From IMG/VR virus record IMGVR_UViG_3300037067_022526, positions 1-64,000 of that record: a stretch of DNA of 64,000 nt. One strand, given 5' to 3'. This stretch comes from a virus. Lineage: Duplodnaviria; Caudoviricetes. The position numbers and the translations under genes are program-made. Numbering within the stretch: position 1 is the first letter of the stretch; each line of letters starts with the position of its first letter. This document shows positions 27,076 to 52,491 of this stretch, one piece after another. The notes below the pieces were generated by a model. The model saw only the letters and a program-made list of their open reading frames with translations. It ran no database searches and was not told the origin of the DNA.

Positions 27076-27083
27076 GAGTTTAT

Positions 27084-27233
27084 ATGTTTTTTGTACCAGT
27101 AGTAGACCAGAACAATAATCCACTAATGCCCACCACTTTGCTAAGGGCTAAGAGATGGGTTAATTCTGGCAAAGCTACTCCATTCTATAAGAAAGGCATA
27201 TTTTGTGTTAAAATATTAAGGCGGAAGAAGTAA
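27084..27233 (+). pseudogene. isrB: truncated isrB (PLMP domain only, 49 aa)
   Basis: first 41 aa identical to the 47772 ORF, then deletion junction and TAA. Confidence 0.85.
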
Positions 27234-27344
27234 AGTTTAAAACTTATTTAAGTGTTAGGAGTAGGGATAATTCCTCTAGCCTAAAGATTGGGAGTTTTCT
27301 TATCCACAATAAAAAGTGAAAAGGAAAGTGAAAAGGAGATTGTA

Positions 27345-34981: not shown

Positions 34982-35979
34982 TGAAGCTGTCAGGACATTC
35001 ATATAGCAATGACGTATTCGACAGTCTTATGGATAACATTCAAAGTGACGTTATTTATAAAACAAATAAAGTGAGTTCATCAGATTCCCCAATCTCAAGC
35101 ATGGACGTATTTTCTTCCATTACTGAGAACGATTTGCAAGAGATACGGGAAGATATGCGAGGGGATATTATAAACGAACTGCAATTTGCTGCAGATAAAG
35201 CAAACGTTGTCATAGCAAAAGATGATGTCGTTAGGTTTGCAAAAGATGCAGAAAAAGATGGACTAAGAGGCAAAGAGCTTGAACGTGCAGCCCAAAAATT
35301 CTGTAATAAGATTTCCAGCGCAATTGCTCCACCACAAAGTTCATCCCGCAATTCGTCTGAATTACTGCTTACTGCTAATAACTCAGCAGTTATACCTGCC
35401 GGTTACAATCCAGAGCACGGACCCAGTGATTCTAAAACTGGCGGTTATATGGGTATGTCTCAGAATCCTAATACAATTTGGGACTCTGACGCATTAGATA
35501 TTCTTGCACAGAAACAAGCAGGCGATGAACAAATAAAAGAGTCCAAGAAAAATATGGAAGAATTTAAGAAATCTCAGAAAGAGCAGTATTGGGATGAAAT
35601 TCAAAAGCAGGGATCCGATGCTAATGTACTAAAAGAAAAAGTAGCGTCGGTTGCTAATGTTTCAACGTCCGAATCCAGCGCTGGGAACCAGAATCTTCCG
35701 TCCAATTCTATGAGTATTTTTAGTAATGATAGGGATTTTTCCAATATACCAGATTCTACAACGGGTGAATCGATCAAGAAGTCAGCACAGGAAAGAGCCA
35801 ACAAAAAAGAGGCATCTAAATCTGAATGGAATAAAGTTGAACCTGCCAAAAAGGTTGACAATCTCGGCATATTAGATACTCCAGAATCAAAGAATACTAT
35901 TAAAAAGAACAGCCATAGAGAATCTGTTGACCAACTTTTTGAGGGGCTTCTTGAAGCCGGATTCAATCCAGAGAGCTAA
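34981..35979 (+). CDS. hypothetical protein
   Basis: AGGAG RBS; TAATG coupling at 34981. Confidence 0.7.
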   Translation: MKLSGHSYSNDVFDSLMDNIQSDVIYKTNKVSSSDSPISSMDVFSSITENDLQEIREDMRGDIINELQFAADKANVVIAKDDVVRFAKDAEKDGLRGKELERAAQKFCNKISSAIAPPQSSSRNSSELLLTANNSAVIPAGYNPEHGPSDSKTGGYMGMSQNPNTIWDSDALDILAQKQAGDEQIKESKKNMEEFKKSQKEQYWDEIQKQGSDANVLKEKVASVANVSTSESSAGNQNLPSNSMSIFSNDRDFSNIPDSTTGESIKKSAQERANKKEASKSEWNKVEPAKKVDNLGILDTPESKNTIKKNSHRESVDQLFEGLLEAGFNPES

Positions 35980-35983
35980 ACGT

Positions 35984-38233
35984 GTGTTTAATTTGGCAAA
36001 AATTTCAGCTGTCACTCCTGACAATGCTGCCAGAGAAGTAAGAGATGCATTAGACGATACTGAAGATACGCTTAGAAATCAGCAGAATGCCGAAAATGCC
36101 GCAAGTACCAATGATATTGAAAATTCAATTGGTCCCGAAGAACGAGCCACTTTAGATCAATATAGAATTTCTAATTTAGTCAAATCAATTCAACAAATTC
36201 TCTCAGACGATAAATACAGAACAATATCTGCTGCTGTGTATGCAAGGCCAGAGATACAATCTCTTATTGAGTACCAAAATCCCACGGTATTATTGGATAA
36301 AATTAAATCTATGGGGTTGGAAGGTGCAGCAGCAACTCTTGATGCAAGATCTAACGCCCTTGTGCAGCCCCAATTATTGAAAGCTTATTTTGATAGAATG
36401 GCCAGAATACTTGAACGACAAAATCGCAATTTACCTCCGGGCACCATGACTGGGTCTCCCACAGTACAGGGTCTGCCCGCACGAGCATTTAATGCAAAAG
36501 AAATAAGGAGGGGGCAGGTGGAGGCCCCAGATCCGGTGAATGAATTAGACAAGGGAATGTTTATTACGAAGTACCTCCCGATTTTGATTGCCTATAATGC
36601 TAATGATGCAAATAGTCAAGAAAGTATTTTATCAAATGAGGCAAAAAAGGAAATTTTAAGAAAGGTCAGTCGTGGGCTGGAAAATGATGCAAACGATGCA
36701 ATTGAAGCCGTACAACAAATGGACCCAATTAATGACGCTGAAAAGGCCAGAAATCGATTAGAAATATTATATGAAGTATTTATCGCACCGGCCGCTTTTG
36801 ACCCATCAAATACTATGGAGCCTGTAATGAGCACAAAAAATCCAAAAGGTATCATAGCTTTTAACCTTTCAGAATACATTCTGAATAACAAAGCAGAGAC
36901 AAGAGAAACGATGGTAAAAACTGCCGCTGATCAATTCGGGCAGCAATATTTGCTATATGGCCCAACAGAAAAACGTGTTTGTCCCAAGCTTAGAGGCAAA
37001 GGTGGTGGTCAACCTGGAAGCGGTGATGTTGTTTCAGAATATGTCTGTAGACATCACTGTTTAGATGGTATAGTTATTGATGACAATAAAACTATTTGTG
37101 GTGAAGCTCTTTGGCGCGCTAATGTGATGGACAAATATTCCCGCGAATATGTGGACAAGGATGGCAATATAGTTGGCGGATACTTGAATAAGAGATTTGA
37201 AATCAATCGCAATGTACCGGAAGAAAACAAAATGCGATTAAAGCCCGGCGAGATAAGAAAACCGCGTCCACCAGAGATGGGCAACTTGGAATCTCGTATG
37301 CAGGCAATGCGTGCAGCCGAAGGTAAAAAGCGTGGGTATCGTCCAGACACAAACACTGGAGACCCCTTCCGATGGGACACCGATGTAGACCAGAACAATG
37401 TCGAACAAACCCAAGCAGAAAGAGACCGAAGAGAAGAAGCCAGCGGACATAAAACAGTTCAATATACTGATAAGAATAAAATAGAAAATAATCCCAAGAA
37501 AGCGTTTAATCTAAAATCCGTTAAAACTGCCCAAACATTTGAAGATATCAAGTATGATTTTACATCTGGGCAAGAGAAAGCTCGGCAAATGAGTACTGAA
37601 GAATTGCATTTTGCTCTGAAAGATTTAAGAGAAGTAATTAAAATACAAGAAGACGCTCGTCGTGCGGGACATCATGTGCCTAAATTGGGGTATTATTGGG
37701 ACGAACTTCATACTTATGCTCAAGAATTAAAAAACAGACAAAATGCCAATAAATCAAAACAACCTTTAGTGGAACGAACTCCAGAACAAGATGAGTTTGA
37801 ATCGATGTTTGAACCTGAATCTAAATCTAAATCTAAATCAATGCCAACCGACGTAGTTCCCGGTTCTGGTGAAAAACCTAAACCAATGCCATATGGCGGC
37901 GAGCCATATACTGATGAAGAAATGGGACTAGACCAATATACTAAAGACCCATTTGGATATGAACTTTGGGAATGTCCTCGATGTGGAAATACAATAAGCG
38001 AAAAAGATACTAATAAGCACGGGAAAATATTTGATGAGGAGATAGATCTCCATAAATCAAATTGTGGTGATTACGAAGGCCCAATTAACGAACAAGACAG
38101 ATTTAATTTAAGACCAGATTTATATGAACAGCACGAATCGTCTAATAAAACTCCGGTCAAAACTTCTTTTAATCTCAAAGAAGCCAAATCCACCAAGATG
38201 GATAAATTATTAAATATTAAAAAAAAAATTTAG
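35984..38233 (+). CDS. putative internal head protein; possible -1 frameshift extension to 38469
   Basis: likely GTG start giving MFNLAK; repeated FNL and KTA motifs; ends in an A10 run. Confidence 0.75.
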   Translation: MFNLAKISAVTPDNAAREVRDALDDTEDTLRNQQNAENAASTNDIENSIGPEERATLDQYRISNLVKSIQQILSDDKYRTISAAVYARPEIQSLIEYQNPTVLLDKIKSMGLEGAAATLDARSNALVQPQLLKAYFDRMARILERQNRNLPPGTMTGSPTVQGLPARAFNAKEIRRGQVEAPDPVNELDKGMFITKYLPILIAYNANDANSQESILSNEAKKEILRKVSRGLENDANDAIEAVQQMDPINDAEKARNRLEILYEVFIAPAAFDPSNTMEPVMSTKNPKGIIAFNLSEYILNNKAETRETMVKTAADQFGQQYLLYGPTEKRVCPKLRGKGGGQPGSGDVVSEYVCRHHCLDGIVIDDNKTICGEALWRANVMDKYSREYVDKDGNIVGGYLNKRFEINRNVPEENKMRLKPGEIRKPRPPEMGNLESRMQAMRAAEGKKRGYRPDTNTGDPFRWDTDVDQNNVEQTQAERDRREEASGHKTVQYTDKNKIENNPKKAFNLKSVKTAQTFEDIKYDFTSGQEKARQMSTEELHFALKDLREVIKIQEDARRAGHHVPKLGYYWDELHTYAQELKNRQNANKSKQPLVERTPEQDEFESMFEPESKSKSKSMPTDVVPGSGEKPKPMPYGGEPYTDEEMGLDQYTKDPFGYELWECPRCGNTISEKDTNKHGKIFDEEIDLHKSNCGDYEGPINEQDRFNLRPDLYEQHESSNKTPVKTSFNLKEAKSTKMDKLLNIKKKI

Positions 38234-38490: not shown

Positions 38491-41400
38491 ATGGGAAATA
38501 TTATACTGCCCGATGACCCAAACTGGAAGCAACCATTAATTATGGGAGACCCATTCGAACAAGGTCTCACTCCTAAATCGGCCCAAGAAAAAAGAAATAA
38601 AGAATTTGATAAACAGCGTGAATCTGAGGGAAATGTTTTTAAGTATGCGAATAGTGCAGTAGCACATCATCCTGAACCCTGGTTGAAAAATGCCCAAGTA
38701 ACTGGCGTGTCAAATATGATGACGAACCCAATGTGGTTCTCACCACTGCATACACCTCAGAATTGGCAAATAGCGAGCAAGAGACGTGAAATTTACCAAT
38801 GGAGCTACGTGACCAGTGACAAAAACCCTTGTTATTTGGTTAATTATGGGGATTTTTCCTTAGACGACATAAAAAATGTATATACAAAATGGCAGAATAA
38901 TTTTGCGGATAGAGGTAAAATGTATATACAAAATGACAAAGGCAAGAAGGCGAAGCCCGACATTTGCACTAAGCGATATGTTGAGAAAAAAGCCAATCGT
39001 ATAAAAGTATTAGGCAATCCTCATCCCATCGAAGTAACTCATGACCATAAATGTATAGTTATTAAACGAGAGGATGTAAAATGCCCAAAGGGCATTAGCA
39101 GATCCAAAAATTGTATTTTTCAAGCATGTTCTCCGACCTGCGAAAGAGTCAAATGCAAAGACTACGAGAATAAAAACTATAATATCTCTACCATTAATGC
39201 CGAGGATGTCAAGAAAGGCGACTATGTATTATGTCCATTTCCAACCGAAGTTAAAGAAAGCATTATAAAAACTAAAGAACAAGCTCGATTTGCTGGACAT
39301 TTAGCATCAGACGGATGGATATCTCAAAATAATTTTCCGATAACCAATGTTTGTATGCATCCGGATGAAACTGAATACGTTTTGTCATCTGTATCTCCAG
39401 TTTTTGAGTCTTTTGGTGCTGTTGTAAAACAAGAGTCTTTTGGAAATAATAAAGTAGTAGTTGTCAGAAGCGGGAAAAAATCCTTGCATGAATATAGCAG
39501 TAAATTAGTTAAAGGCAAAAACACGGATAAACATTTTACTGAAGAAGTAATGCTTTTAAACCCAGAACTACAAAAACACGTTTTAGGGGCTTATATACAA
39601 TCAGACGGATCATTTAATAAAACAATAGAACAAATAGAAATAACAACTGTTTCTAAACATTTGGCATATCAATTGCAGATAATGTGCTATCGTAATAAAA
39701 TCCTGGCATTTTGTAGTAAACAACCACGTAGACAAGGAAAAGGGTCGTTTAAAACAACAAATCTGGAATATTATATAGTTAGCATTCCCAAGACATTTGT
39801 ATATACATTACAAGATTATGTTCCAGGTAAAATTCCGGAACGTATATACAAACCTCAGCAAAAGTTAGGTGGTAGTTCGGGTGTTAATTTTATCAAAAAT
39901 GGGAAAAATATCAGTAGAATCTATAATAGATTCTTTTGGAAAAATTATGTCGTAACCCCTGTGGTATCAAACACTTCATTTGACTATAAAGGTGATGTAT
40001 ATGATATAAGGGTACCACCTACTCACGCAATAACCGCCAACGGCATAGCTATTCATCAATGTAGGTTTTTCTACGATTGTTTCACTCCGGATAATTTAGT
40101 TTTAATGGCAAATGGAACCGAAAAATCGATTAGCCAAATTGTTCCAGGAGATATGATCGTAGCCGGTGACGGAAGCATACAGCAAGTAAATAATGTTTTC
40201 AGAAGATGGACTAAAGAAAAAGTTCTTAGTATTCATGTTGCCGGGTCGAATATTCCAATTAAATGTACGACTAATCATAGAATTCCACGAGTATCTAAAG
40301 AATCATGGCAACAAAGTTGTGAAACAACCCCATCCGAGCGAAGAAAACGAGAAAGAAAAGAATCATTTGGAGAAACATCGCTAGAAGAAACATTCGATTC
40401 AGCCGACACTTTGTCCACAAGTTCGTATCTTTTTACTCCGCAATCTTCAATTGGAACTGGAATGGGTTGGGATTTACGAAAATGCTATCTATTAGGTGCT
40501 TTCACTGCAGAAGGAAGTTATTTTTATTACAATTATAAACCTACAAATAAACACACTCCAAAAGGTGTAAGATTTTCCATAAATTCAAATGAGATAGGTG
40601 ATGAAAATAAATTTGGAAATAGAATACAAAATTATTTATCAATCTTCCAAAATCATAAAGTTAGTACAACATATAACGGAAATTGTGCCGAAATAAGAGC
40701 TACTGATAAAAATCTAGCAAATGAAATAATGGAGTTTTGTGGGCATGGAGCAACCCAAAAAAGCATAACTGGTCAATTCATATCACAAGCAAACAAGGAA
40801 GAACTGCTTTCATTTTTAGCTGGATTTATTGATGGAGATGGTTGTTATAGTACTACTATGGGATGTCAGATCATTACTCATAGTGATGATCTGGCATCAC
40901 AAATTGCTTTTATCTGTGAGAAATTGGGTATTACATTTTCGACAACAACCACTAACAATATTAGAAAAAATAATAACTTTAAGGGACACAATATACGTAT
41001 TTCTCGATTCGCATGTGAAATCTTAAAGCCTTATTCGGTTAAAATTAATAATTTAGACACAAATCATACTAAATTTAGAGAATATCTGTTTATCAATAAC
41101 AAGTTGTATCGAAAAGTTAATAAGATATCTGAGTCAACCTATGAGGGGTGGGTATATGATTTGGAAATTGATAAAGTCCATAGTTATTGCGTAAACAGAT
41201 GTGTTGTTCATAATTCGGAGCCGAAGGTCGCTGCTGCAATAGACTTCTACTGCTTTACTCCTGATACTCAAATACTAATGTCCGATGGAACTCAAAAGTC
41301 TATTTCTTCTATTATGCCTGGTGAAATAGTGCGATCACATACTGGAAAAGCGAATAAAGTATTGAGAACTTTTAGCAGGCAATCCAGTGAAGATATTTTA

Positions 41401-44400
41401 AAAATTACTTATGCCGGTGTATTGTGTGGGAAGTTGAAACTTACACTTGGACATAAGGTCTTAACAGAAAAGAATGGTGAAATTAAATACGTTCAAGCTC
41501 AGGAATTACAAGTGGGTGATTATCTTCTTACTCCTTGTGGTTATGATGCTGAAGGTGAATGGGAAAATGGATTAGTTGATGATTTTGCATATCTTGTAGG
41601 TGTATACGCAGCAGAAGGCTGTGGTATGCCGTATGAACACATATCAAATAGAGGAAGAATTATAAGTTATTATAAGGGCGTTAAATTTGCCATATCACAA
41701 GAAGAACAGAGTTTTTGTGATACCATTGTGGAAAAAATAAAGATACTTTATGGTGATTGTAAGATTTCTTTAGTACCGGATAAAAATTCTAAAAAATTAG
41801 AAATTCGAGTATATGGCAGATCAATTGCAGATGATTTAATAGGTATTTGTCCAGGCACATCGAGTGATGGCACAAAAAGAATAATTCCACACATTATAAA
41901 AAACTGGAATGCCCGTCAAATGGCATCTTTCGTTTCTGGATTTTATGATGGCGATGGCTGTTATCAAAATAATGCTCCCACAGTTGGACTGGGTGTTTGC
42001 AAGCGATTACTTGAACAAGTAGCTAATATACTTGACAGGTTAGGCATAGAATATACATTTGCGAAAAGAAGACCGACTGGATTGGGAAGACAACAAGTTT
42101 ATATTGTGAGTATTCCTCGACGAGAAATGCCAAAGTTTACACACTTGTCAGCCAAAAAGATCATCTGGAACTCATATAATCAGCATTTCCGCCGCAATTG
42201 GTCAATATTCAAAAAAGGCAAGTATGTATATAGAGCGATAATAAAAATAGAGCAATCTCCATATGATGGTGCTCTGTATGATATGGAAGTTGAGAATGAC
42301 CACTCATATGTGGTAAACAGGATAAGCGTATCCAATAGTCGCTTTCCCATGAATGGCTTCAAACTTGAATGTAAAGATCCTAAAATACTCAAGTTTTTCG
42401 AGCATAAAGCAGCTAAGCGCCTAAGCCTTAACGAAAACTGCAAAATGATATCCAGTGAATGTCACATGCTGGGCGATGTATTCATACACATGGACGTTGA
42501 ATGTCCAGTGTGCCAAGGTATTGGGGTTAACCCAGATTCCGGTGAAATTTGCAACCATCCCGGAGGTAACTTTAAAAAGATGCGCATACTCAATCCAGAT
42601 TGGATTGAAGTGCAACAAAACATTATGGCAGATGAGCCAAGTATAGTTTTCGTACCCGACGAAGAGCTTAAACGTATAGTATTCTATAAACAACCTAAAA
42701 ACATATATGACAGAATACCTAATGCAATTAAATCTCTGGTGTTACAAAACAAACCTATCCCATTAAGCAACAGAACAACATCGCATTTGAAATATATGCC
42801 TGTGCCTTATGGCACTTATGGCACATCACTGATCAGAAGATTGTTCACTACTCTAGCTTATAAGACTAAAATTATGACTGCTAACTGGATAGTCGCCGAG
42901 CGATTGATTCTGCCAGTTCGTGTTGTGCAAATAGGTAGCGATGATAGACCAGCAACAAGTGCTGACATAGCCGATGTCCAGCAGCAATTAGCTGCAACTG
43001 CTAATGACCCTAATTTAACCATTGTGACCCACCATAACTTCAAGTACGAGTGGTACGGCGCTTGTCATGATGATCAGACAGAAGTTCTAACTGATACTGG
43101 ATTCAAGACTTATGACCAAGTTGATATCACAAAAGACAAGATTTGTATATACAATCTAGAAGAAAATAAGACAGAATGTATATACGCCACAGATAAATAT
43201 GTCTACGACTATGATGGTGAGATGATCCATTTCCACAATAGAAGACTAGATATATTAGTTACTCCAAATCATAAAATGCTATATCGATGGAGTAATAAAG
43301 ATTCATGGAAAACTGAGGAAGCATCTGAACTAAAATGTTCTACCAGATTGCTTGGAGCAGCAAAATTTGAGGGGTTTATTAAATCTGGTGGATCTATTTA
43401 TGCAAAAGAGGATAAGTATTACGTAAGAATAGGTGACAGCAGTATTGAATTGAGCAAATTCTGTAAATTTATTGGATATTACCTGTCAGAAGGAACATTG
43501 AATAACAAAAAGAGTAATTATCATGTAGCAATTTACCAGAATACCTCTAAAGAGTGCTTCTCTGATATCGAAGACACTATGAGTGATATGGGGTTCCATG
43601 TTACTGAGTATGCGGATAATCGAAATCCTGATGATTGCAGATTTATTATATCAAATAAGGAATTGGTAACATTTATTAATGAGCATTTTAAACATGGTTC
43701 ATTGAATAAAACCATTCCTAATTGGATTAAAAATTTGCCGCGGAATTATTTAAAGTTGATATTTAATTCTATGATTAATGGTGATGGATATAGGCATCCA
43801 ACTGTTAATACTGAGAGCTTTACTTATACGACTGTTTCTAAGTCTTTGGCTGATGATATACAAGAAATTGCTTTTAAGTGCGGTTATTCTACCTGCATTC
43901 GTAAAGCAAAGAAACCTGATTATAAATCATTCGGTAAAAATACAATATACAGAGTCCACATAAGCATGGGTAAATTCTCTAATGGCAGTTATCCAATTGT
44001 ACGAGAAAAAGATATTACCAGAGTTCCATATAAAGGTAAAGTATGGTGTTTCACAGTTCCTACTGGATTCTTTGTGACTCGCCGTAATGGTAAAATCACT
44101 ATCCAGGGTAACAGCGGCAAAATATTGCAAATAACTCAGGAAATGGAGTATATAGGTAAAGAAATACTCGACGGATTTATGCTAAACCAGTCACTACTGA
44201 ATGGGGAGATGTGTATTCCCGAAACTGACAAGATGTTAACAAAATCTGGATTAAAAAATCTTAATCAAATAGACAAAGATGATGAGATTGCGACATTCAA
44301 TAAAGAAACAGGGATGTTGGAATATCAAAAACCAACCGAGATTCATGTATACGACTGGAATGATGATCTGATTCATTTCCGGACCGATCGTATTGATTTT

Positions 44401-47400
44401 GCTTGTACGCCAAATCATCGAATGTTATATCAAAAAAGAGACAGCGATAAGTGGATTGTGGATACTGCAGATAAAGTATCTGATCGTGTCAAATTCCGAA
44501 AACGAGTTAATTGGTTGGGAGGTGAAGTCCCAGAAAATGTCATTGTTGGTGACAATGAGATTTCCGTAGATCAATATGTTGCCCTCATGGCATATTATGT
44601 AACCGAAGGATATACTCGCAAAGAGAGCAGAACCGCTCGCAAGACTTATAAACAGCCGATATCATTATGCGTATATCAATCTGTAAAAGGCAAGGGATAT
44701 AATGATGTTTGTGAGTTATTCGAATCTCTGCCATACAAATATTCTCATGACGAAAAACACGATTCATTTGCAATTCATAACAAAACATTAGCTATGTATC
44801 TACAAATGGAATGTGGAGATGGCAGTTATAATAAACACTTGCCGGATTGGGTAAAAGAATTGCCAAGACCGTATCTGCAGAAATTATTGCGACACATGAT
44901 TAATGGAGATGGTTCAATTAGAACAAGAGATCGAGGTGAGCCAAAACAATATTATGTGTATTATACTCGTAGTAGGCAATTAAATGCAGACATTCTAGAA
45001 GTTGCGTTAAAGTGTGGATATTGGCCGCGTTATCGATATAGCGAGAAGCGTGGGTATGAACTCGCATTTTCGGATTATGATCTTAACAAAGAAACTTTGC
45101 CGCTTGAATCCAAAAAGTATAAGACCATAACTCGTCTTCCATATAAAGGTAAAGTTTGGTGTGTTACTGTTCCTAATGGATTTATAATCACTGAACGAAA
45201 TGGTAAATTAAGCATCCATTCGAATTCGGGCTACCAAAGTGCTCAGGTTGGTGTTGAAACACTTATTCGACGTATTGAGTCCTGGAGACACACCCTAGCC
45301 GAATGGATACAAGAACGTATATTTAAACCCATAGCTGAAATGCAGGGATTTATTGATAACGAAGAGAGCGAAGAAATAGGAGAATTATCCTTTATATATC
45401 CTGAAATCAAATGGAATGATTTGAATCTAAAAGATAAAACTCAATACTTCCAATTGCTTAACCAATTGCATGACAAACAACTTATTTCTTCTCAAACCTT
45501 ATTAGAAGAGATGGATTTCAAATGGGATCAGGAAGTCAAGCGTATGCGATACGAGCAAGCACAAGCTGGTCCTATGGGTATGGGTGCGGGGCTGGGAGGC
45601 GCAGCCGGTGGTGCCGGTGGTATGCCTTTGGGCGGAGGCGGTGGAGGTGCTGGTGGTCCTCCAATGCCAGGCGAAGGTGCTCCAGGTATGGCAGGTGGCG
45701 TAGGTGGTATGGATATGGGCATGGGTGGTGGAGGTATGCCAGGTGCAATGCCTGCCACAGCAGGAGCTGGTGGCAAAATAATGAAGCCTGGCAAAGAGAA
45801 AAAATTTGAACAGCAGAAAACAGATGGACAAATGATGAATGCCATGCCTGTTAAACTAACAAGTATCGAGCAGAAGGTGGCCGATACCTTAGTTGGTTTA
45901 AGCCAGATGTATCGCATAAACCCGCAGAAAATAAGAGTTCAATTTCCAGTACAAAATCCTCACGGAGGCCCGCCTTATCAGCTAGATTTTGCATTGCCTG
46001 ATTTAAAACTTAATGTCGAGTGCTTATTACCTGGTGCTGTAATAGAAACAGATAATGGATACAAAAAAGTTGAGGATGTTTTATCATCAGATAAATTATT
46101 TGACAAATATGGCAAACATACTAAAATTGTGCATAAATTTGTTCAAGAATATGATGGGGAAGTTGCCAAAATTTGCGCTATAGGAATGTTTAATCTGGAT
46201 GTAACTTCATCGCACAAGTTGTGGATTTCTAAGCCCAAGAAAACCAGAGTAGTTCGCGATGAGCCCCGGATAACACGAACAAGAGAATATTTGCAACCGG
46301 ATATACCACAATTTATATGCGTTAAAGAAGCAGAAGTTGGTGACTATGTAATAATTCCTAAGCGAAAGACCAATAGCACTTCTCGCATTATAAACTTACA
46401 ACAATATATAACTAATAATTGTAAAAAGATTCCAGAGCAAATAAATCTTGATATTAAAACATCTAGATTGCTAGGGATCTATGTTGCTGAGGGATGTGCA
46501 TCTGATAGCGGCTCAATTGTATTTTCGTTTTCAGAAAATGAAAAGGATTACATTAATGAGACAGAAACATTGATGGATGAAATTTTTGGAATTAAATTAG
46601 GAAAGATTTATTTTGGAAAGGGAGCAGCGCGGGTATATTTTCAGAGCACTCCATTATCTAAGTTCTTCAATGAAGTATGTGGTAAGTATGCTAGAAATAA
46701 AAAAGTTCCTAGTATGATGTTTAATACCAGTGAAGAAAACATTAAATCCTTTATTCAAGGAGTGATGGATGGAGACGGGTGCATGCGGAATGAGTCGGAA
46801 TGGCGTATTCAGACATCTTCAAAATCATTAGCTTTGGGTATACAGCAACTTTGTGCTACTATTGGAATCTGGGCACCTATTGTTATTAGTAGGATTGATG
46901 GGACATATAATATTCGAGGGCGAAGTGGTATTCAACATTCGCTTTTTGAAATTACAATAAATTGGAATCCACGAAAGAGAAGATATCGCGAAGATGATGA
47001 TTATTTCTATATTCCAATTAGAAAAATAATATTTTCGTCATACAGTGGAATTAGATATAATTTCGAAACAGAAGACCATTCTTATTGTGTAAATAACATG
47101 GTTTCAAAAAATTGCGATGGTGACATATGGCACAGTAATCCTGAGCAGGCGTCCGATGATCAGAAACGAGATAATACTTTAGCCCAACGCGGATGGACTG
47201 TTTTACGGTTTGATGATAAGGCAATTGAAGAGACCCCACAAGCAGTGAGAAATACTATCGGTAAATTTATTAACGCGATTCTAGAAAGCAAAAAATCGAA
47301 AACTGCATCTACCGATGAATTTGGTGCTGCAAAGTTATATACTGCTAAATCAGGAGAGATCTATGATTTAAGGGACGAATATAATAAATTCGTTAAAACG

Positions 47401-47502
47401 AAATTTTCCGGGGAATCCTTCGGAGGCGATGCTCAACAACAAGAATCGTCGTTTTCTAAAGCTAAATATACCTCAGTTAAAAGTGAGGAGTTTAAACAGT
47501 AA
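38491..47502 (+). CDS. portal protein with six inteins and a C-terminal DUF559-like domain (791 aa after splicing)
   Basis: located between terL and the protease; exteins join to EIYQW-CRFFYD-SEPKVAAAIDFY-SRFP...GDVF...LNPDWI...YGTSLIRR; six Hint domains with LAGLIDADG motifs. Confidence 0.85.
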   Translation: MGNIILPDDPNWKQPLIMGDPFEQGLTPKSAQEKRNKEFDKQRESEGNVFKYANSAVAHHPEPWLKNAQVTGVSNMMTNPMWFSPLHTPQNWQIASKRREIYQWSYVTSDKNPCYLVNYGDFSLDDIKNVYTKWQNNFADRGKMYIQNDKGKKAKPDICTKRYVEKKANRIKVLGNPHPIEVTHDHKCIVIKREDVKCPKGISRSKNCIFQACSPTCERVKCKDYENKNYNISTINAEDVKKGDYVLCPFPTEVKESIIKTKEQARFAGHLASDGWISQNNFPITNVCMHPDETEYVLSSVSPVFESFGAVVKQESFGNNKVVVVRSGKKSLHEYSSKLVKGKNTDKHFTEEVMLLNPELQKHVLGAYIQSDGSFNKTIEQIEITTVSKHLAYQLQIMCYRNKILAFCSKQPRRQGKGSFKTTNLEYYIVSIPKTFVYTLQDYVPGKIPERIYKPQQKLGGSSGVNFIKNGKNISRIYNRFFWKNYVVTPVVSNTSFDYKGDVYDIRVPPTHAITANGIAIHQCRFFYDCFTPDNLVLMANGTEKSISQIVPGDMIVAGDGSIQQVNNVFRRWTKEKVLSIHVAGSNIPIKCTTNHRIPRVSKESWQQSCETTPSERRKRERKESFGETSLEETFDSADTLSTSSYLFTPQSSIGTGMGWDLRKCYLLGAFTAEGSYFYYNYKPTNKHTPKGVRFSINSNEIGDENKFGNRIQNYLSIFQNHKVSTTYNGNCAEIRATDKNLANEIMEFCGHGATQKSITGQFISQANKEELLSFLAGFIDGDGCYSTTMGCQIITHSDDLASQIAFICEKLGITFSTTTTNNIRKNNNFKGHNIRISRFACEILKPYSVKINNLDTNHTKFREYLFINNKLYRKVNKISESTYEGWVYDLEIDKVHSYCVNRCVVHNSEPKVAAAIDFYCFTPDTQILMSDGTQKSISSIMPGEIVRSHTGKANKVLRTFSRQSSEDILKITYAGVLCGKLKLTLGHKVLTEKNGEIKYVQAQELQVGDYLLTPCGYDAEGEWENGLVDDFAYLVGVYAAEGCGMPYEHISNRGRIISYYKGVKFAISQEEQSFCDTIVEKIKILYGDCKISLVPDKNSKKLEIRVYGRSIADDLIGICPGTSSDGTKRIIPHIIKNWNARQMASFVSGFYDGDGCYQNNAPTVGLGVCKRLLEQVANILDRLGIEYTFAKRRPTGLGRQQVYIVSIPRREMPKFTHLSAKKIIWNSYNQHFRRNWSIFKKGKYVYRAIIKIEQSPYDGALYDMEVENDHSYVVNRISVSNSRFPMNGFKLECKDPKILKFFEHKAAKRLSLNENCKMISSECHMLGDVFIHMDVECPVCQGIGVNPDSGEICNHPGGNFKKMRILNPDWIEVQQNIMADEPSIVFVPDEELKRIVFYKQPKNIYDRIPNAIKSLVLQNKPIPLSNRTTSHLKYMPVPYGTYGTSLIRRLFTTLAYKTKIMTANWIVAERLILPVRVVQIGSDDRPATSADIADVQQQLAATANDPNLTIVTHHNFKYEWYGACHDDQTEVLTDTGFKTYDQVDITKDKICIYNLEENKTECIYATDKYVYDYDGEMIHFHNRRLDILVTPNHKMLYRWSNKDSWKTEEASELKCSTRLLGAAKFEGFIKSGGSIYAKEDKYYVRIGDSSIELSKFCKFIGYYLSEGTLNNKKSNYHVAIYQNTSKECFSDIEDTMSDMGFHVTEYADNRNPDDCRFIISNKELVTFINEHFKHGSLNKTIPNWIKNLPRNYLKLIFNSMINGDGYRHPTVNTESFTYTTVSKSLADDIQEIAFKCGYSTCIRKAKKPDYKSFGKNTIYRVHISMGKFSNGSYPIVREKDITRVPYKGKVWCFTVPTGFFVTRRNGKITIQGNSGKILQITQEMEYIGKEILDGFMLNQSLLNGEMCIPETDKMLTKSGLKNLNQIDKDDEIATFNKETGMLEYQKPTEIHVYDWNDDLIHFRTDRIDFACTPNHRMLYQKRDSDKWIVDTADKVSDRVKFRKRVNWLGGEVPENVIVGDNEISVDQYVALMAYYVTEGYTRKESRTARKTYKQPISLCVYQSVKGKGYNDVCELFESLPYKYSHDEKHDSFAIHNKTLAMYLQMECGDGSYNKHLPDWVKELPRPYLQKLLRHMINGDGSIRTRDRGEPKQYYVYYTRSRQLNADILEVALKCGYWPRYRYSEKRGYELAFSDYDLNKETLPLESKKYKTITRLPYKGKVWCVTVPNGFIITERNGKLSIHSNSGYQSAQVGVETLIRRIESWRHTLAEWIQERIFKPIAEMQGFIDNEESEEIGELSFIYPEIKWNDLNLKDKTQYFQLLNQLHDKQLISSQTLLEEMDFKWDQEVKRMRYEQAQAGPMGMGAGLGGAAGGAGGMPLGGGGGGAGGPPMPGEGAPGMAGGVGGMDMGMGGGGMPGAMPATAGAGGKIMKPGKEKKFEQQKTDGQMMNAMPVKLTSIEQKVADTLVGLSQMYRINPQKIRVQFPVQNPHGGPPYQLDFALPDLKLNVECLLPGAVIETDNGYKKVEDVLSSDKLFDKYGKHTKIVHKFVQEYDGEVAKICAIGMFNLDVTSSHKLWISKPKKTRVVRDEPRITRTREYLQPDIPQFICVKEAEVGDYVIIPKRKTNSTSRIINLQQYITNNCKKIPEQINLDIKTSRLLGIYVAEGCASDSGSIVFSFSENEKDYINETETLMDEIFGIKLGKIYFGKGAARVYFQSTPLSKFFNEVCGKYARNKKVPSMMFNTSEENIKSFIQGVMDGDGCMRNESEWRIQTSSKSLALGIQQLCATIGIWAPIVISRIDGTYNIRGRSGIQHSLFEITINWNPRKRRYREDDDYFYIPIRKIIFSSYSGIRYNFETEDHSYCVNNMVSKNCDGDIWHSNPEQASDDQKRDNTLAQRGWTVLRFDDKAIEETPQAVRNTIGKFINAILESKKSKTASTDEFGAAKLYTAKSGEIYDLRDEYNKFVKTKFSGESFGGDAQQQESSFSKAKYTSVKSEEFKQ

Positions 47503-47765
47503 ACTACTCCAGTCTAAAGACCGGGAGCTTGTGAGTGATGGAACACAACGTAAGAGTTTACTAGACTAAGAAGAAAGGAGACTATTATTCTACGTTAAGA
47601 GAACTACAATCACCCCGGAACGCCACCCTAATTCCAGGCTCTGAGCTAGAACCATTTAATAGCACGTTATTCTAGTTAATAGCTAAGTTTTCTTAACATT
47701 GTCGAAGGGTAGTATATTAGAGGTTTTCATAGCACCCACTTATCGTAAAGCTATGAAATTTTGGA
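47499..47765 (+). ncRNA. omegaRNA scaffold, copy 2
   Basis: about 270-nt non-coding region before isrB, near-identical to copy 1. Confidence 0.8.
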
Positions 47766-47771
47766 GTTTAT

Positions 47772-48806
47772 ATGTTTTTCGTACCAGTAGTAGATCAGAA
47801 CAATAATCCACTAATGCCTACAACTTTATTAAGAGCTAAGAGATGGGTTAATTCTGGCAAAGCTACTCCATTCTATAAGAAAGGTATATTTTGTGCTAGA
47901 CTCAACGTAAAGACACCAAACACTCATAAACAAGAAATTGTGGTAGGCATCGATCCTGGCTCTAAACGAGAAGCCTACACAATTAAATCAGAAGCTCACA
48001 CTTATCTAAATATTCTAACAGAAACGCCTGACTGGGTTAAAGATGCTGTAGAGCGACGTAGGAACATGCGTAGAGCTAGAAGATTCAGAAACACACGTTA
48101 TCGTGAAGCCAGGTTTGATAACAGAAAATCAAAGAAATTAGCCCCTAGCACAAAAGCCAGATGGCAACTCAAATTAAATATATGTAAGTGGCTAGAGAAA
48201 ATTTTCCCAATAACACACTATGTAGTAGAAGATATTAAAGCTAAGACTTGGAAGAATGCCAAGAAATGGAATGTAAGTTTCTCTCCATTAGAAGTAGGCA
48301 AACAGTGGTTCTATGAAGAAATAAAACAACTAGGCATCTTAGAAACCAAGCAGGGATATGAAACCAAAGAATTAAGAGATAATGCTGGTTTGAAAAAAAG
48401 TAGTTCTAAGCTAGACGATAAATTTGAGTGCCACAATGTAGATAGTTGGGTATTGGCTAACTGGTTAGTAGGTGGGCACGTAAAACCAGATAACACTTCT
48501 ATTATTAAGCTAGTACCTCTTAGGTTTCATAGAAGACAATTGCACGCTTTGCAACCTTCGACTGGTGGAGCAAGGAAACCTTATGGTAGTACTAGGAGTT
48601 TGGGGTTAAAACGAGGTAGTTTAGTTAAACATAAAAAGTATGGTTTGTGCTACGTTGGTGGTACAATGAACGACAGGATTAGCGTGCATTCATTGAACGG
48701 TGGTAAGAGGCTGGCTCAGAATGTGAGGGTGGAAGATTGTGAATTTAGAACTTATTTAAGCGAAAGGAGAAGTCGTCTTCCCTCTACGGGGGTTAAATCT
48801 CTGTAG
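47772..48806 (+). CDS. isrB: IsrB RNA-guided nickase
   Basis: PLMP, RuvC-I GIDPG, bridge helix RRNMRRARR, RuvC-II VVEDI, RuvC-III HNVDS; 344 aa with no HNH. Confidence 0.88.
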   Translation: MFFVPVVDQNNNPLMPTTLLRAKRWVNSGKATPFYKKGIFCARLNVKTPNTHKQEIVVGIDPGSKREAYTIKSEAHTYLNILTETPDWVKDAVERRRNMRRARRFRNTRYREARFDNRKSKKLAPSTKARWQLKLNICKWLEKIFPITHYVVEDIKAKTWKNAKKWNVSFSPLEVGKQWFYEEIKQLGILETKQGYETKELRDNAGLKKSSSKLDDKFECHNVDSWVLANWLVGGHVKPDNTSIIKLVPLRFHRRQLHALQPSTGGARKPYGSTRSLGLKRGSLVKHKKYGLCYVGGTMNDRISVHSLNGGKRLAQNVRVEDCEFRTYLSERRSRLPSTGVKSL

Positions 48807-49269: not shown

Positions 49270-52200
49270 ATGGCTCAACAGAATGAAAATTTCAAAAAAT
49301 ATTTAATTAATGAGGGAATGTCTCGCATATCATCCAAGATGCGAAAGATAGCATCCAAGTTAAAAAATGCAGATGTTAAGTCTATCTTATTAAAGGAAGC
49401 AGACGATCGGCTTAGCAAATTGTCGGCCCTTTCCAAAGAAAGTATGGCGTGGAATACCGGATACACCGGACTTGATTCTGCAACCGTAAATCTTGAATGG
49501 CAAATGCCTAACTTGGGCGATAAGGCACAAAAGATTAAAGCAGCCATTGAAGAAAAATTTATGCCTTACATGAAAGCAGATTTGATTGGGGCGTCCGGTA
49601 AAAAGCGACAACATAAAGTCCAGGGCGGATTTGTAGTTGAAAATTTAGACCCTGAAACTGGAAATATAGTTCCAGAGTTTAATCCTACTTTAGTGATGCG
49701 GTTTTTGTATCGCAGAAATATAGTTCCAATGCAAAAAGAAGATGCTGAATCAAATAATCGAGCCACAGAGGCCATTTCAACTGTCGATCAGTTTTTACAG
49801 CAATCCGGGGTATCGGACTACTCGCTGATGGACTTTATTCGAACACTTGAAAACGAAGATGTCGGATTAACTGCATATTTTCACACCTCACAAGGGAGCG
49901 CTGAGAAAGGTCTTAATTTTTCTCATTCTGAATTGAGGGCCTTTTTTGATGACCAGAAAAATAAATCGTCGCAGTATGGCATGTTGCCTGGAAACATAAA
50001 TTCAAGGTATTTCTTTGCTCAACATGCTGAGAGAAATCGAGTTTATGAATCAGATAGTACTAACCCTTCCGGCTCTATATTTTTATCTAGAACGAAAGAA
50101 TATAGAAGACGATTTCCGATAGAGTCAGTAGACCAAATCAAATTGCCCAGTGATTTAATGCGGGCTATTGCTCGTAAAGTTCGAGATGGATTCGCATTAA
50201 ATGCCAATACTCTTTGGCGTGATATTCAAACAACTCAAAGTAAATATATTGAAAAAATGGGGATTCAAGATCCTACTGCTATGCAATCTCATTATCGACA
50301 AATGTTTGACCGTATTAACAAAACATTTTATGATGGTATGAGAGAGCAAAAAGCACAGAAAGGGGATCCTGCTGTTGAGGATGATTTTACATGGGGAAAA
50401 ACACCACATGGTTATCGACAAGGGTTAGTGGCTACTAGAACTGGCAAGGCATATAAGTCCGAGCTTACAGTAGAAGAACTGCGATTAATGTTAAAAAATT
50501 GTACGTCGGATATGCTTGACTATTATAAATCAGTTACACAGCCCCAAAATACGGATCAAGTAGAGTCACAATTTTCATCTGAATATGCTCCGTTTCTTGG
50601 GGTCAAAGATCCACAACAACGGGATGAGATTAGAAACTCTTTTACGGTGCCAAAACACAAAATGAATTATTCTAGTAATGGCATGGATACAGACCCAACA
50701 ACTGCGGCCGGGGTTAGGACTTTGGCTATTCCTGCATTAAGGAAACTACCACCAACCAATTTTAACGATGGAACAATTATTTTTGACAGAGACAATGGGA
50801 ATTTGGGCCGTCAACAAATAACCAAAAACTGGATAAATCCCAGCGGTGGTGGATTATCGCGGATAGTCATAGAATTCGGTCCTTGGGCCACAAAAGTATT
50901 GCAATCATTATCTCAACAAACAGATTTCTTTAAAAACAAACCATATACTGCTGGTGCTGCAAGGGCTATTTCGATATTCAATCGGACCAATGCGGAATCA
51001 GTGTTTGATGTAATCAGAGAATACCAAAATGATTGGAATAGATTTAAATCTGAATATCTCGGACAGTCTTTTGTTAATGAATTGAGACTTTACTATAAAT
51101 ATTTGTCGTCTAAAGATCCAAATCCAGTAAAGGATGCTATTTCGCAGTATCAAAAAACCGGTGATTGGAATGAATTTTCCAGAGCAGTCCGACATTTAAT
51201 TCCAACCAAAGATACCGATGTATCAACCACAATGGACGAGAATGGATTCAGGACATTTTGTCAATATGGATATCAAATTGCCAAATTAATGGATTATGTA
51301 TCATGCTTAATGAATGCTGCATGTTTAGAACAGCTCGAAAGCAGATTAGATAAAAAGAAAAAGGATCCATCTCCGGTAGCAGAACAAATATTTGGGCGAA
51401 AATATTCATCGAGTTCAGGAAAAGGTAATGGCGGTCAGGTGATGATAGGCATTCGGTATGCCTATAATGCCCCAGAAGTTGTAGATGAAAATGAAATAAA
51501 TCCAGATGGTTTCGAATATGGCAAGCATGTAATGAATCTAATCAAAATAGAAAGAAAAAGAAGGCACGATGCCTATCGCATCAAAGGTCCGACTTACAGA
51601 CAAACATCTCACTGGGAAAATCTTGGACAGAAGTCAATTGATACAGGTGAGACCACGGTTCCTGTGGGCGAACACTTGCCATTACCAGGGCAAACCCAAG
51701 AAATGCAAGTTAATCCTATGATAGAACCCACCACAAAAGTAATCAAAGTAGTTGAGAACCTTGAGTATTTCATTGGTGAGGCCGGCAGTGCCGAGGGCAT
51801 GTTGAGGGATCTTGAGAGAGGTACCGACTGGAATAAAGTGCTAGATAGTTTTCTTCGTCGATATCCTAATCTTGAAAGCAGTATTAATGTTTTAATTTCG
51901 CCCATCAACGCCAGATTTGATCTTCTAGAAGTTGCCGCCAAGAAAGCCATAGATAATGTCAGAAAACAGTTGGAGAAGGAAATTGAAACGTCTGGGCAGC
52001 AAGTTGCTGTTGAGGTAATCGTTCATCACGATGATGGCCGAGAGGAAGTTTTATCAACTGATAAAATTGATTCTGATGTCCAACAACTACAATCGCAGGA
52101 CATTGAAATTCCTCAAGGATTCGATGAAACAACAGAGATTCCTGCTGCACCCGTTGAGGATACTGGGAAATATGAAACAGGCATACCAAGCGAAGTTACA

Positions 52201-52491
52201 TCGACACCAGCAGCTCAGCCACCAGTTCCATCTCCACAAGAACCAGCGGAAATGCTTCCTACTCCCATACAGCAACCCCAATCTCCAATACCGGGGTCAG
52301 GCGGAAAGGTTAAAAAACCAGATGGTAGGCAGTTAAAGAAACCAAATGTCAATAGAGGTTTTGGTCCTACGGGTTCTGTATTTCAACGGATGAGTAAAAT
52401 AGCATCCGAGCTAGACCGCAGAGGACTAGATGTATTAGCAGATAAAATTGACTTCATCAATTCCGAGTTGCAGAGAATCGCGAGGAAATAA
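49270..52491 (+). CDS. putative internal head protein (1073 aa)
   Basis: long ORF in the head module; C-terminal KIASELDRRGLDVLADKID motif. Confidence 0.7.
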   Translation: MAQQNENFKKYLINEGMSRISSKMRKIASKLKNADVKSILLKEADDRLSKLSALSKESMAWNTGYTGLDSATVNLEWQMPNLGDKAQKIKAAIEEKFMPYMKADLIGASGKKRQHKVQGGFVVENLDPETGNIVPEFNPTLVMRFLYRRNIVPMQKEDAESNNRATEAISTVDQFLQQSGVSDYSLMDFIRTLENEDVGLTAYFHTSQGSAEKGLNFSHSELRAFFDDQKNKSSQYGMLPGNINSRYFFAQHAERNRVYESDSTNPSGSIFLSRTKEYRRRFPIESVDQIKLPSDLMRAIARKVRDGFALNANTLWRDIQTTQSKYIEKMGIQDPTAMQSHYRQMFDRINKTFYDGMREQKAQKGDPAVEDDFTWGKTPHGYRQGLVATRTGKAYKSELTVEELRLMLKNCTSDMLDYYKSVTQPQNTDQVESQFSSEYAPFLGVKDPQQRDEIRNSFTVPKHKMNYSSNGMDTDPTTAAGVRTLAIPALRKLPPTNFNDGTIIFDRDNGNLGRQQITKNWINPSGGGLSRIVIEFGPWATKVLQSLSQQTDFFKNKPYTAGAARAISIFNRTNAESVFDVIREYQNDWNRFKSEYLGQSFVNELRLYYKYLSSKDPNPVKDAISQYQKTGDWNEFSRAVRHLIPTKDTDVSTTMDENGFRTFCQYGYQIAKLMDYVSCLMNAACLEQLESRLDKKKKDPSPVAEQIFGRKYSSSSGKGNGGQVMIGIRYAYNAPEVVDENEINPDGFEYGKHVMNLIKIERKRRHDAYRIKGPTYRQTSHWENLGQKSIDTGETTVPVGEHLPLPGQTQEMQVNPMIEPTTKVIKVVENLEYFIGEAGSAEGMLRDLERGTDWNKVLDSFLRRYPNLESSINVLISPINARFDLLEVAAKKAIDNVRKQLEKEIETSGQQVAVEVIVHHDDGREEVLSTDKIDSDVQQLQSQDIEIPQGFDETTEIPAAPVEDTGKYETGIPSEVTSTPAAQPPVPSPQEPAEMLPTPIQQPQSPIPGSGGKVKKPDGRQLKKPNVNRGFGPTGSVFQRMSKIASELDRRGLDVLADKIDFINSELQRIARK

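What the first reader, a model, noticed from the sequence alone, without database searches (positions are those of the whole stretch)
38491..47502. Portal gene with six inteins, three separated by only 6 and 12 extein residues
Seen: inteins at 38803-40059, 40078-41214, 41251-42336, 43063-44112, 44212-45225 and 46021-47112, totalling 2212 of 3003 aa. Exteins CRFFYD (6 aa), SEPKVAAAIDFY (12 aa) and a 33-aa piece lie between them. Neighbours look paralogous: 2 and 3 both start CFTPD; 4 and 5 both end ITR.PYKGKVWC.TVP.GF. Portal is not a classic intein host. Inference: local spread of inteins, overlapping homing sites, and possible ordered or alternative (extein-skipping) protein splicing.
Basis: partly seen in the sequence, partly recalled or inferred. 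Interest (0 to 1): 0.85.

Follow-up and report, generated by a model that had tools for sequence, protein, structure and literature searches.

The report
Phage portal gene with six inteins
The only portal (DNA-entry ring) gene of a 138-kb uncultured phage is three-quarters self-splicing inteins: six complete ones, three of them only 6 and 12 residues apart. It belongs to a portal family that is an intein hotspot, so it is a natural system for studying how crowded inteins splice and spread.

Summary
Observation confirmed. Removing them gives a 791-aa protein that aligns with the Bacillus phage G portal (E 2e-80) without a gap at junctions 1-5. The sixth intein splits the catalytic motif of a C-terminal DUF559/Vsr-like nuclease domain that intein-free relatives carry intact.

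All six keep a Cys/Ser at residue 1, TxxH, a terminal Asn/Gln, a +1 Cys/Ser and both LAGLIDADG motifs. Inteins 1 and 6 are under purifying selection (dN/dS about 0.09).

Among the 150 best cluster representatives of this portal family I mapped 201 inteins at 15 sites in 100 proteins. One relative has seven. Exteins of 0, 2, 4, 5, 6, 7, 12 and 13 aa between inteins recur in independent contigs.

Each intein is 45-87% identical to same-site inteins of other phages but only 28-32% identical to its in-gene paralogue, and AU tests reject the sister pairings. Site hopping did occur elsewhere in the family. Extein skipping has no support.

The published maximum I found is five inteins per protein. 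This scan had already noted DUF559-fused portals and back-to-back portal inteins on other DNA.

The parts
38491..47502 (+). Portal precursor ORF, 3003 aa: 791 aa of extein plus 2212 aa of intein
38491..38802 (+). Extein 1 (104 aa), portal N-terminus, ends ...REIYQW
38803..40059 (+). Intein 1, site a (419 aa). Ser1, THDH block B, ends His-Gln with +1 Cys, two LAGLIDADG motifs. Ser1...HQ lineage.
   Evidence: 86% identical to P0002_a; dN/dS 0.084
40060..40077 (+). Extein 2 (6 aa, CRFFYD)
40078..41214 (+). Intein 2, site b (379 aa). Cys1, TTNH, ends HN with +1 Ser, LAGLIDADG endonuclease.
   Evidence: (Intein_splicing 37.2 bits, above cut-off)
41215..41250 (+). Extein 3 (12 aa, SEPKVAAAIDFY)
41251..42336 (+). 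Intein 3, site c (362 aa). Cys1, TLGH, ends SN with +1 Ser, LAGLIDADG endonuclease.
   Evidence: (Intein_splicing 45.3 bits)
42337..43062 (+). Extein 4 (242 aa), portal core
43063..44112 (+). Intein 4, site e (350 aa). Cys1, TPNH, block-F Cys, ends GN with +1 Ser, LAGLIDADG endonuclease.
   Evidence: (LAGLIDADG_3 44.3 bits)
44113..44211 (+). Extein 5 (33 aa), a long helix in the fold of the intein-free homologue
44212..45225 (+). Intein 5, site f1 (338 aa). Cys1, TPNH, block-F Cys, ends SN with +1 Ser, LAGLIDADG endonuclease.
   Evidence: (AceL NrdHF intein, E 2e-7)
45226..46020 (+). Extein 6 (265 aa): end of the portal core, a Gly/Met/Ala-rich linker, and the N-terminal half of the DUF559/Vsr-like domain, ending ...LKLNVE
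46021..47112 (+). Intein 6, site g (364 aa). Cys1, TSSH, ends KN with +1 Cys, LAGLIDADG endonuclease. Inserted in the vE|(C)DG..WH motif of the nuclease domain.
   Evidence: PI-PkoII, E 9e-11; 87% identical to P0002_g; dN/dS 0.089
47113..47502 (+). Extein 7 (129 aa plus stop): C-terminal half of the DUF559/MTES_1575 domain and the tail
   Evidence: (DUF559 25.8 bits, above the 20.6 cut-off)

Best explanation
The ORF encodes the phage's only portal protein: a phage-G-type portal core, a glycine-rich linker and a C-terminal DUF559/Vsr-like nuclease domain. It is made as a 3003-aa precursor interrupted by six independent, full-length inteins, each a HINT splicing domain with a LAGLIDADG homing endonuclease.

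Each intein sits in a highly conserved motif. Each is an allele of a site-specific intein lineage that circulates among related phages by endonuclease-driven homing during co-infection.

Maturation needs six autocatalytic protein-splicing reactions, which I infer to be independent. Each intein's own fold brings its residue 1, its terminal Asn or Gln and the +1 Cys or Ser together. A 6- or 12-residue extein can therefore be the C-extein of one intein and the N-extein of the next.

The crowding is an accumulation of selfish elements in a portal family that is an intein hotspot. Related inteins have repeatedly shifted to neighbouring positions over evolutionary time. It is not a duplication within this genome.

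Shown here: boundaries, colinearity, motifs, purifying selection, family-wide recurrence and phylogeny. Inferred: actual splicing, endonuclease activity and independence of the six reactions.
For: Portal identity:
- The spliced 791 aa aligns to phage G portal gp14 at E 2e-80, 32% identity, with no gap at junctions 1-5.
- PHROG portal families match the exteins, and tblastn hits annotated portals.
- The intein-free homologue P0049 passes Pfam Portal_Mu (26.3 bits against a 23.9 cut-off). Its AlphaFold model matches solved portals only (probability 1.0, best E 6e-10).
- No second portal core exists in the 137,762-bp genome.

Intein identity:
- Pfam Intein_splicing, Hint, LAGLIDADG_3 and Hom_end match.
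- PDB sequence hits to V-ATPase inteins, PI-PkoII and the AceL NrdHF intein.
- Family HMMs find each intein at E 1e-114 to 1e-163.
- The catalytic positions are conserved across the lineages.
- Against the orthologous contig L002, dN/dS is 0.084 for intein 1 and 0.089 for intein 6.

Recurrence:
- 201 inteins at 15 sites in 100 of 150 representatives.
- Sites a, b and c are all occupied, with the same 6/12-aa (or 5/13-aa) exteins, in P0015, P0018 and P0048.
- Shorter inter-intein exteins (0, 2, 4, 5 aa) occur in other representatives.

Other:
- The +1 nucleophile tracks occupancy. At site b, empty alleles mostly carry N and occupied ones all carry S. At site g, empty alleles mostly carry A or V and occupied ones all carry C.
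- Site-specific clades and the AU tests.
- A second assembly is identical.
Against: - No protein-level evidence exists that any of the six splices. No virion proteome or expression data are available.
- Pfam Intein_splicing scores for inteins 1, 4, 5 and 6 are below the curated cut-off. Their assignment rests on LAGLIDADG hits, paralogy, motifs and colinearity.
- Four inteins lack the usual penultimate His, and intein 1 ends in Gln. Both could slow splicing.
- The portal fold was tested on a natural intein-free homologue (58% identical over extein 4), not on the spliced product itself. That model is of moderate quality (pLDDT 66.7).
- The second assembly may derive from the same reads.
Confidence: 0.85

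Rival explanations
1. Local spread within this gene: inteins 2/3 and 4/5 arose by duplication or ectopic homing of a resident intein into the neighbouring site in this phage's recent ancestry.
For: Inteins 2 and 3 and inteins 4 and 5 are full-length paralogues. Site switching does happen in the family. P0105 carries a b-type intein at site c, and P0007 carries an e-type intein at site f1.
Against: Each intein is far closer to same-site inteins in other phages (45-87% identity) than to its in-gene paralogue (28-32%). The site-specific clades are well supported. AU tests reject the sister pairings: p 6e-52 with a log-likelihood difference of 200, and p 3e-9 with a difference of 223.
Confidence: 0.04
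2. The intein load is functional. Ordered, conditional or alternative (extein-skipping) splicing acts as a timer or checkpoint for portal maturation, or produces portal isoforms.
For: Portal maturation must wait for the slowest of six reactions. Intein 1 ends in Gln. Intein 6 has a Cys1/Cys+1 pair, and inteins 4 and 5 have Cys1 plus an invariant block-F Cys, which could form redox traps. Conditional protein splicing is known for other inteins (PMC7360933, listed).
Against: - 50 of the 150 representatives have no mapped intein (some of these are fragments), and occupancy is highly variable. Essential regulation would not vary like this.
- The mini-exteins are invariant portal residues, so skipped products would lack core sequence.
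- All six keep endonuclease motifs, as expected of selfish homing elements.
Confidence: 0.08
3. One or more inteins are splicing-dead, so this is a defective portal gene in a decaying or non-viable phage genome.
For: Non-canonical penultimate residues (S, G, S, K) and a C-terminal Gln. No experimental evidence of splicing.
Against: - The frame is open for 9 kb at about 36% G+C.
- All nucleophiles and TxxH motifs are intact.
- The same non-canonical residues are conserved across dozens of lineage members: Gln in 20 a-site inteins and penultimate Gly in 73 of 81 e/f-site inteins.
- Purifying selection acts on inteins and exteins.
- The genome has terminal repeats and is rated complete.
Confidence: 0.04
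4. Assembly chimera: inteins from different strain variants were merged into one contig.
For: Strain variants with different intein content exist (P0002 against P0001), and the data are short-read metagenomes.
Against: - The inteins share no repeat longer than about 80 nt, at 78% identity.
- A MEGAHIT contig is identical over 10.2 kb.
- The a+b+c arrangement recurs in three other, divergent representatives.
- The nearest variant is about 16% divergent in DNA, too far to be merged.
Confidence: 0.02

Closest known systems
Multi-intein genes: Trichodesmium erythraeum ribonucleotide reductase (4 inteins), archaeal MCM (4), Anaeramoeba Prp8 (5; PMC10710043)
   Same: Several independent inteins, each at a conserved motif of one essential protein, and each a site-specific allele.
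   Different: This gene has six full-length inteins, and a relative (P0010) has seven. Inteins make up 74% of the ORF. Exteins between inteins are as short as 6 and 12 aa here, and 0-5 aa in relatives. The host is a phage structural protein, not a replication or splicing enzyme. The 2023 paper gives 4 as the previous maximum and 5 as its new one.
Haloarchaeal MCM-a to MCM-d neighbouring inteins (PMC10643990)
   Same: Several insertion sites close together in one gene. The +1 residue must be co-converted (Pro to Ser there; N to S, A/V to C and P to S here). Neighbouring inteins are expected to interfere with each other's homing.
   Different: There are 15 sites here, against 4. Sites are 1-18 codons apart, and up to three or four adjacent sites are occupied together.
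Known phage portal inteins (SPP1 Gp6-like prophage portals, PMC4760082; actinobacteriophage portals, PMC5050341 and 10.1101/2025.01.02.630785)
   Same: LAGLIDADG inteins in portal genes, with polyphyletic intein groups.
   Different: The most intein-rich actinobacteriophage genome has seven inteins in the whole genome. Here six lie in one gene. This portal family is the phage-G type with a fused DUF559 nuclease.
Class 3 inteins (block-F Cys as branch nucleophile; my own knowledge of Tori and Perler's work)
   Same: Inteins 4 and 5 and their whole e/f lineage have an invariant Cys at the block-F position that is normally Asp (81 of 81).
   Different: They also keep Cys1 (80 of 81). They lack the class 3 Trp two residues after the block-B His and the Thr before the penultimate residue, as read. 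I do not file them as class 3.

Membership tests
Intein (class 1 type, HINT + LAGLIDADG) | In-frame insertion absent from homologues, with colinear flanks | tested here: met
   No gap at junctions 1-5 against the phage G portal. Empty and occupied alleles exist at all six sites in relatives. Junction 6 is contiguous in the DUF559 domains of intein-free homologues.
Intein (class 1 type, HINT + LAGLIDADG) | Residue 1 Cys or Ser; block B TxxH; C-terminal Asn or Gln followed by Cys, Ser or Thr | tested here: met
   Residue 1 is S, C, C, C, C, C. Block B is THDH, TTNH, TLGH, TPNH, TPNH, TSSH. The ends are Q|C, N|S, N|S, N|S, N|S, N|C. These positions are conserved across the lineages.
Intein (class 1 type, HINT + LAGLIDADG) | HINT splicing-domain profile match | tested here: met
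   Pfam Intein_splicing is above the cut-off for inteins 2 and 3 and below it for 1, 4, 5 and 6. Those four are supported by PDB intein hits for 1, 5 and 6, by intein 4 being 32% identical to intein 5 (E 1e-57), and by family HMMs.
Intein (class 1 type, HINT + LAGLIDADG) | Two LAGLIDADG motifs, each with an acidic residue | tested here: met
   LAGLIDADG_3 is above the cut-off for inteins 1, 2, 3, 4 and 6. Intein 5 scores 19.9 bits against 22.5. Both motifs, each with D or E, are readable in all six.
Intein (class 1 type, HINT + LAGLIDADG) | Protein splicing and homing-endonuclease activity | not testable with these tools
   Only indirect support: purifying selection on inteins 1 and 6, and this being the sole, essential portal gene.
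Tailed-phage portal protein | Sequence homology to annotated portals | tested here: met
   Portal_Mu is above the cut-off in the intein-free homologue.
Tailed-phage portal protein | Portal fold | tested here: met
   Tested by proxy. The model of the natural intein-free homologue P0049 (pLDDT 66.7) gives only portal structures as top Foldseek PDB hits, at probability 1.0. The spliced product itself could not be submitted.
Tailed-phage portal protein | Position in the head-morphogenesis module | tested here: inconclusive
   A prohead-protease-like ORF lies 5 kb downstream. The adjacent large ORFs have no family hits.
DUF559 / Vsr-like (PD-(D/E)xK) nuclease domain | Profile match, contiguous when the intein is removed | tested here: met
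   The C-terminal half matches in the window (25.8 bits against 20.6). The full domain matches in the intein-free homologues P0022 (profile positions 13-108 of 109) and P0049. The N-terminal half alone is not detected in the window.
Class 3 intein | No N-terminal nucleophile; Trp/Cys/Thr triplet with a block-F Cys | tested here: not met
   Block-F Cys is present in 81 of 81, but Cys1 is also present in 80 of 81. The Trp and Thr positions are not matched (read).

The most novel reading that the evidence does not exclude
The crowded inteins do not act independently. The 6- and 12-aa exteins would force an obligatory order or cooperation among inteins 1-3. The slow or redox-sensitive members (the Gln-ending intein 1, the Cys1/Cys+1 intein 6, and the Cys1/block-F-Cys inteins 4 and 5) would make portal maturation, and so the start of head assembly, a conditional, timed step.
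Probability: 0.1. Interest if true: 0.85.

Novelty: new variant of a known kind. Interest (0 to 1): 0.7.

Why it matters
The library I could search gives five as the largest number of inteins in one protein. It contains almost nothing on inteins separated by only a few residues.

This gene has six complete inteins, and its family has 15 sites, one member with seven inteins, and inter-intein exteins of 0-13 aa. Together they form a natural series for questions that so far rest on one experimental system, haloarchaeal MCM:
- How short can an extein be and still serve two splicing reactions?
- Do neighbouring homing endonucleases with overlapping targets block or help each other?
- How do inteins acquire new insertion sites?

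The family is also a source of compact, mutually orthogonal inteins that tolerate minimal extein context. In addition, automated annotation gives a 3003-aa "hypothetical protein" for what is an ordinary 791-aa portal.

Tried and rejected
- Pfam and PHROGs on the neighbouring large ORFs (35927-38233, 49270-52491, 54555-59945) gave nothing useful for context.
- phmmer of the intein-free homologue against PDB sequences found no portal. Only the fold search did.
- phmmer of intein 4 alone against PDB gave nothing significant.
- Pfam on extein 6 alone did not detect the N-terminal half of DUF559. Intein-free homologues settled that point.
- My first anchor-mapping script timed out. A first pass also missed sites e0, e0b and f0 and several occupied sites, so the census numbers are lower bounds.
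- I considered intein 1 starting at Cys114 instead of Ser105. I rejected this because phage G shows no 9-aa insertion and 24 a-site inteins begin with Ser directly after the conserved Trp.
- I considered a second portal gene. The only other hit is a 16-residue shared motif in an unrelated 340-aa ORF.
- I did not fold the three-intein cassette. The tool returns no coordinates, so active-site geometry could not have been read.
- dS for inteins 1 and 6 (0.66-0.90) is lower than for the exteins (1.1-1.6). This might mean later intein exchange, but dS is near saturation and I draw no conclusion from it.


Full report
**What is there.** The window is bases 1-64000 of a 137,762-bp virus record with inverted terminal repeats, rated complete. 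ORF 38491..47502 (+) is a single open frame of 3003 codons.
- intein 1: S...HQ|C
- intein 2: C...HN|S
- intein 3: C...SN|S
- intein 4: C...GN|S
- intein 5: C...SN|S
- intein 6: C...KN|C

The exteins are 104, 6, 12, 242, 33, 265 and 129 aa. The inteins total 2212 aa, 74% of the ORF.

**The host protein is a portal.**
- Joining the exteins in a script gives 791 aa. This aligns with the annotated portal gp14 of Bacillus phage G at E 2e-80 and 32% identity. The alignment passes through junctions 1-5 without a gap, for example …EIYQW|CRFFYD|SEPKVAAAIDFY|SRFP… against …RNEWCRHFYRTEPIIATSLDLHTEFP….
- PHROG portal families match exteins 4 and 6.
- A natural intein-free homologue, P0049 (781 aa), passes Pfam Portal_Mu and DUF559. 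Folded with 16 other intein-free relatives, it gives a model (pLDDT 66.7) whose top PDB matches are all portal proteins at probability 1.0.
- The genome has no second portal core.

**Intein 6 lies in a nuclease domain.** Intein 6 is not in the portal core. It splits the vE|(C)DG..WH motif of a C-terminal DUF559/MTES_1575 (Vsr-like) nuclease domain, which is joined to the portal by a Gly/Met/Ala-rich linker. Intein-free relatives have this domain contiguous.

**The six inserts are inteins.**
- Pfam finds Intein_splicing, Hint or Hom_end_hint plus LAGLIDADG_3 or Hom_end in them. Scores are above the cut-offs for some and below for others.
- PDB sequence hits are V-ATPase inteins for intein 1, the AceL NrdHF intein and PI-PkoII for intein 5, and PI-PkoII and V-ATPase inteins for intein 6.
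- Intein 4 is tied in by 32% full-length identity to intein 5.
- All six show TxxH in block B and two LAGLIDADG motifs, each with an acidic residue.
- Against the orthologous contig L002 (about 84% DNA identity), dN/dS is 0.084 for intein 1 and 0.089 for intein 6. Exteins give 0.01-0.03. The inteins, endonuclease domains included, are therefore maintained by selection.
- Ser1 and the terminal Gln of intein 1 are lineage traits: 24 a-site inteins begin with Ser and 20 end in Gln.

**The family is an intein hotspot.** A search with extein 4 against 1.8 billion cluster representatives gave 143 hits below 1e-30, most of them 1100-2600 aa long. I mapped insertions in the best 150.
- There are at least 201 inteins in 100 proteins, at 15 sites. 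In spliced coordinates these are a 104, b-1 109, b 110, c 122, d 180, e0 358, e0b 360, e-1 363, e 364, f0 395, f1 397, f3 398, f2y 400, f2 401 and g 662.
- Counts per protein are 1 (45 proteins), 2 (26), 3 (19), 4 (6), 5 (2), 6 (1, the window) and 7 (1).
- The seven-intein protein is P0010, at L004:3001-10809, with sites a, c, d, e0, e, f1 and f2 occupied. Three of its inteins (c, e0, e) are mini-inteins of 142-160 aa.
- The window's gene is the longest and has six full-size inteins.
- Short inter-intein exteins recur: 0 aa (P0026, two abutting inteins at site a), 2 (P0092), 4 (SGYQ, three proteins), 5, 6, 7, 12 and 13 aa.
- Sites a, b and c are all occupied, with the same spacing, in P0015, P0018 and P0048.
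- Hence the tight spacing is compatible with a working portal, and it is not an assembly accident. An ENA MEGAHIT contig is also identical over the whole ORF.

**Where the sites lie.** On the P0049 model, sites a, b and c fall in the two N-terminal helices (residues 78-107). The e sites fall at the start of the long helix 344-365. The f sites fall in the loop 373-382 between two long helices. By analogy with solved portals this loop is the tunnel-loop position; that is inference. All sites lie in the best conserved sequence blocks.

**Origin of the crowding.**
- A tree of 178 family inteins groups them by site, not by genome: 20 label changes against 110.7 expected for shuffled labels.
- Each window intein has its nearest relatives at the same site in other phages, at 45-87% identity, against 28-32% to its in-gene paralogue.
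- AU tests reject intein 2 + intein 3 (p 6e-52) and intein 4 + intein 5 (p 3e-9) as sister pairs.
- So the b and c lineages, and the e and f lineages, diverged long ago within this portal family.
- Real site hops are visible elsewhere. P0105 has a b-type intein at site c, and P0007 has an e-type intein at site f1.
- Extein residues track occupancy. Empty b sites mostly read N at +1, while occupied ones read S. Empty g sites mostly read A or V, while occupied ones read C. Occupied f1 sites read M|S, while many empty ones read G|P.
- P0002 lacks intein b yet keeps the rare Ser at the b site. This fits precise loss of the intein, or a pre-adapted allele.

**How it most likely works.** The precursor folds into portal segments interspersed with six HINT-endonuclease modules. 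Each intein performs the standard four-step splicing reaction on its own junctions. I infer that the reactions can occur in any order, because an intein mainly senses its immediately flanking residues. The 18 residues between inteins 1 and 3 are invariant portal sequence, so only the fully spliced product should be functional. At the DNA level the sites are 18 and 36 bp apart. LAGLIDADG targets of about 20 bp or more (my own knowledge) must therefore overlap or abut, so occupancy of one site should alter homing at the next, as was shown for MCM inteins (PMC10643990). None of this could be tested here.

**Comparison and novelty.**
- Portal inteins are known.
- The largest published number of inteins per protein that I found is five, in Anaeramoeba Prp8; the earlier maximum was four.
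- The richest actinobacteriophage has seven inteins in its whole genome.
- CrAss-like phages described as having an unprecedented density have up to three inteins per genome.
- Full-text searches for tandem, adjacent or neighbouring inteins returned essentially only the MCM study.
- The elements are ordinary inteins. Their number, their density and the minimal exteins are new. I rate this a new variant of a known kind.
- Earlier notes of this scan on other genomes had already flagged DUF559-fused portals and back-to-back portal inteins. I confirmed the DUF559-fused portals here and found a back-to-back pair (P0026) in the homologue set.

Noticed in passing
window 47499-48806 and 26810-28205: Two HEARO (IscB omega-RNA) matches (94.2 and 90.7 bits) at 47499-47717 and 26810-27028. 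The first starts at the portal stop codon and is followed by an RRXRR/HNH ORF at 47772-48806. In the relative L002 the gene after the portal follows directly, with no such element.
   Followed up: partly
window 52492-54390: The prohead-protease-like ORF (PHROG head maturation protease) appears to contain a mini-intein at about aa 176-342. The Pfam Hint match is weak, but the family intein HMMs score E 5e-12.
   Followed up: partly
window 22461-25484: A 1007-aa ORF carries another LAGLIDADG intein at about aa 190-490 (Intein_splicing 40.7 bits). I did not identify the host protein.
   Followed up: no
window 16113-17954: Intein N- and C-terminal halves lie on separate ORFs (16110-16649 and 17640-17951). 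This is consistent with the split intein in dUTPase noted earlier in the scan.
   Followed up: partly
genome G000:C1:110199-111218 (minus strand, outside the window): A 340-aa ORF shares an identical 16-residue stretch (NPMWFSPLHTPQNWQI) with the portal N-terminus but has no portal core. It may be a copied interaction motif.
   Followed up: partly
P0026 (homologue, aa 89-865): Two different inteins abut at site a with no extein between them (...SAYQ|CLFEN...VKN|SRFYYE). The +1 Cys of the first is residue 1 of the second.
   Followed up: partly
L004:3001-10809 (P0010): A related portal ORF of 2602 aa has seven inteins (sites a, c, d, e0, e, f1, f2), with 7-aa (SYEWYGA) and 4-aa (SGYQ) exteins between pairs.
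   Followed up: yes
window 43063-45225 and 81 homologous e/f-site inteins: This lineage has both Cys1 (80 of 81) and an invariant Cys at the block-F position that is normally Asp (81 of 81), with a penultimate Gly (73 of 81). This is a class-3-like trait in inteins that otherwise look like class 1.
   Followed up: partly
site a of homologues (e.g. P0004, P0011, P0022, P0034, P0045): At least three unrelated intein types use the same W|C site. One type begins with L, M, N, I or T, with no N-terminal nucleophile. These are candidates for non-class-1 splicing.
   Followed up: no
window 45226-47499: The portal carries a conserved C-terminal DUF559/Vsr-like nuclease domain on a Gly-rich linker, and most family members have it. 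Its role in a portal ring is unknown.
   Followed up: partly
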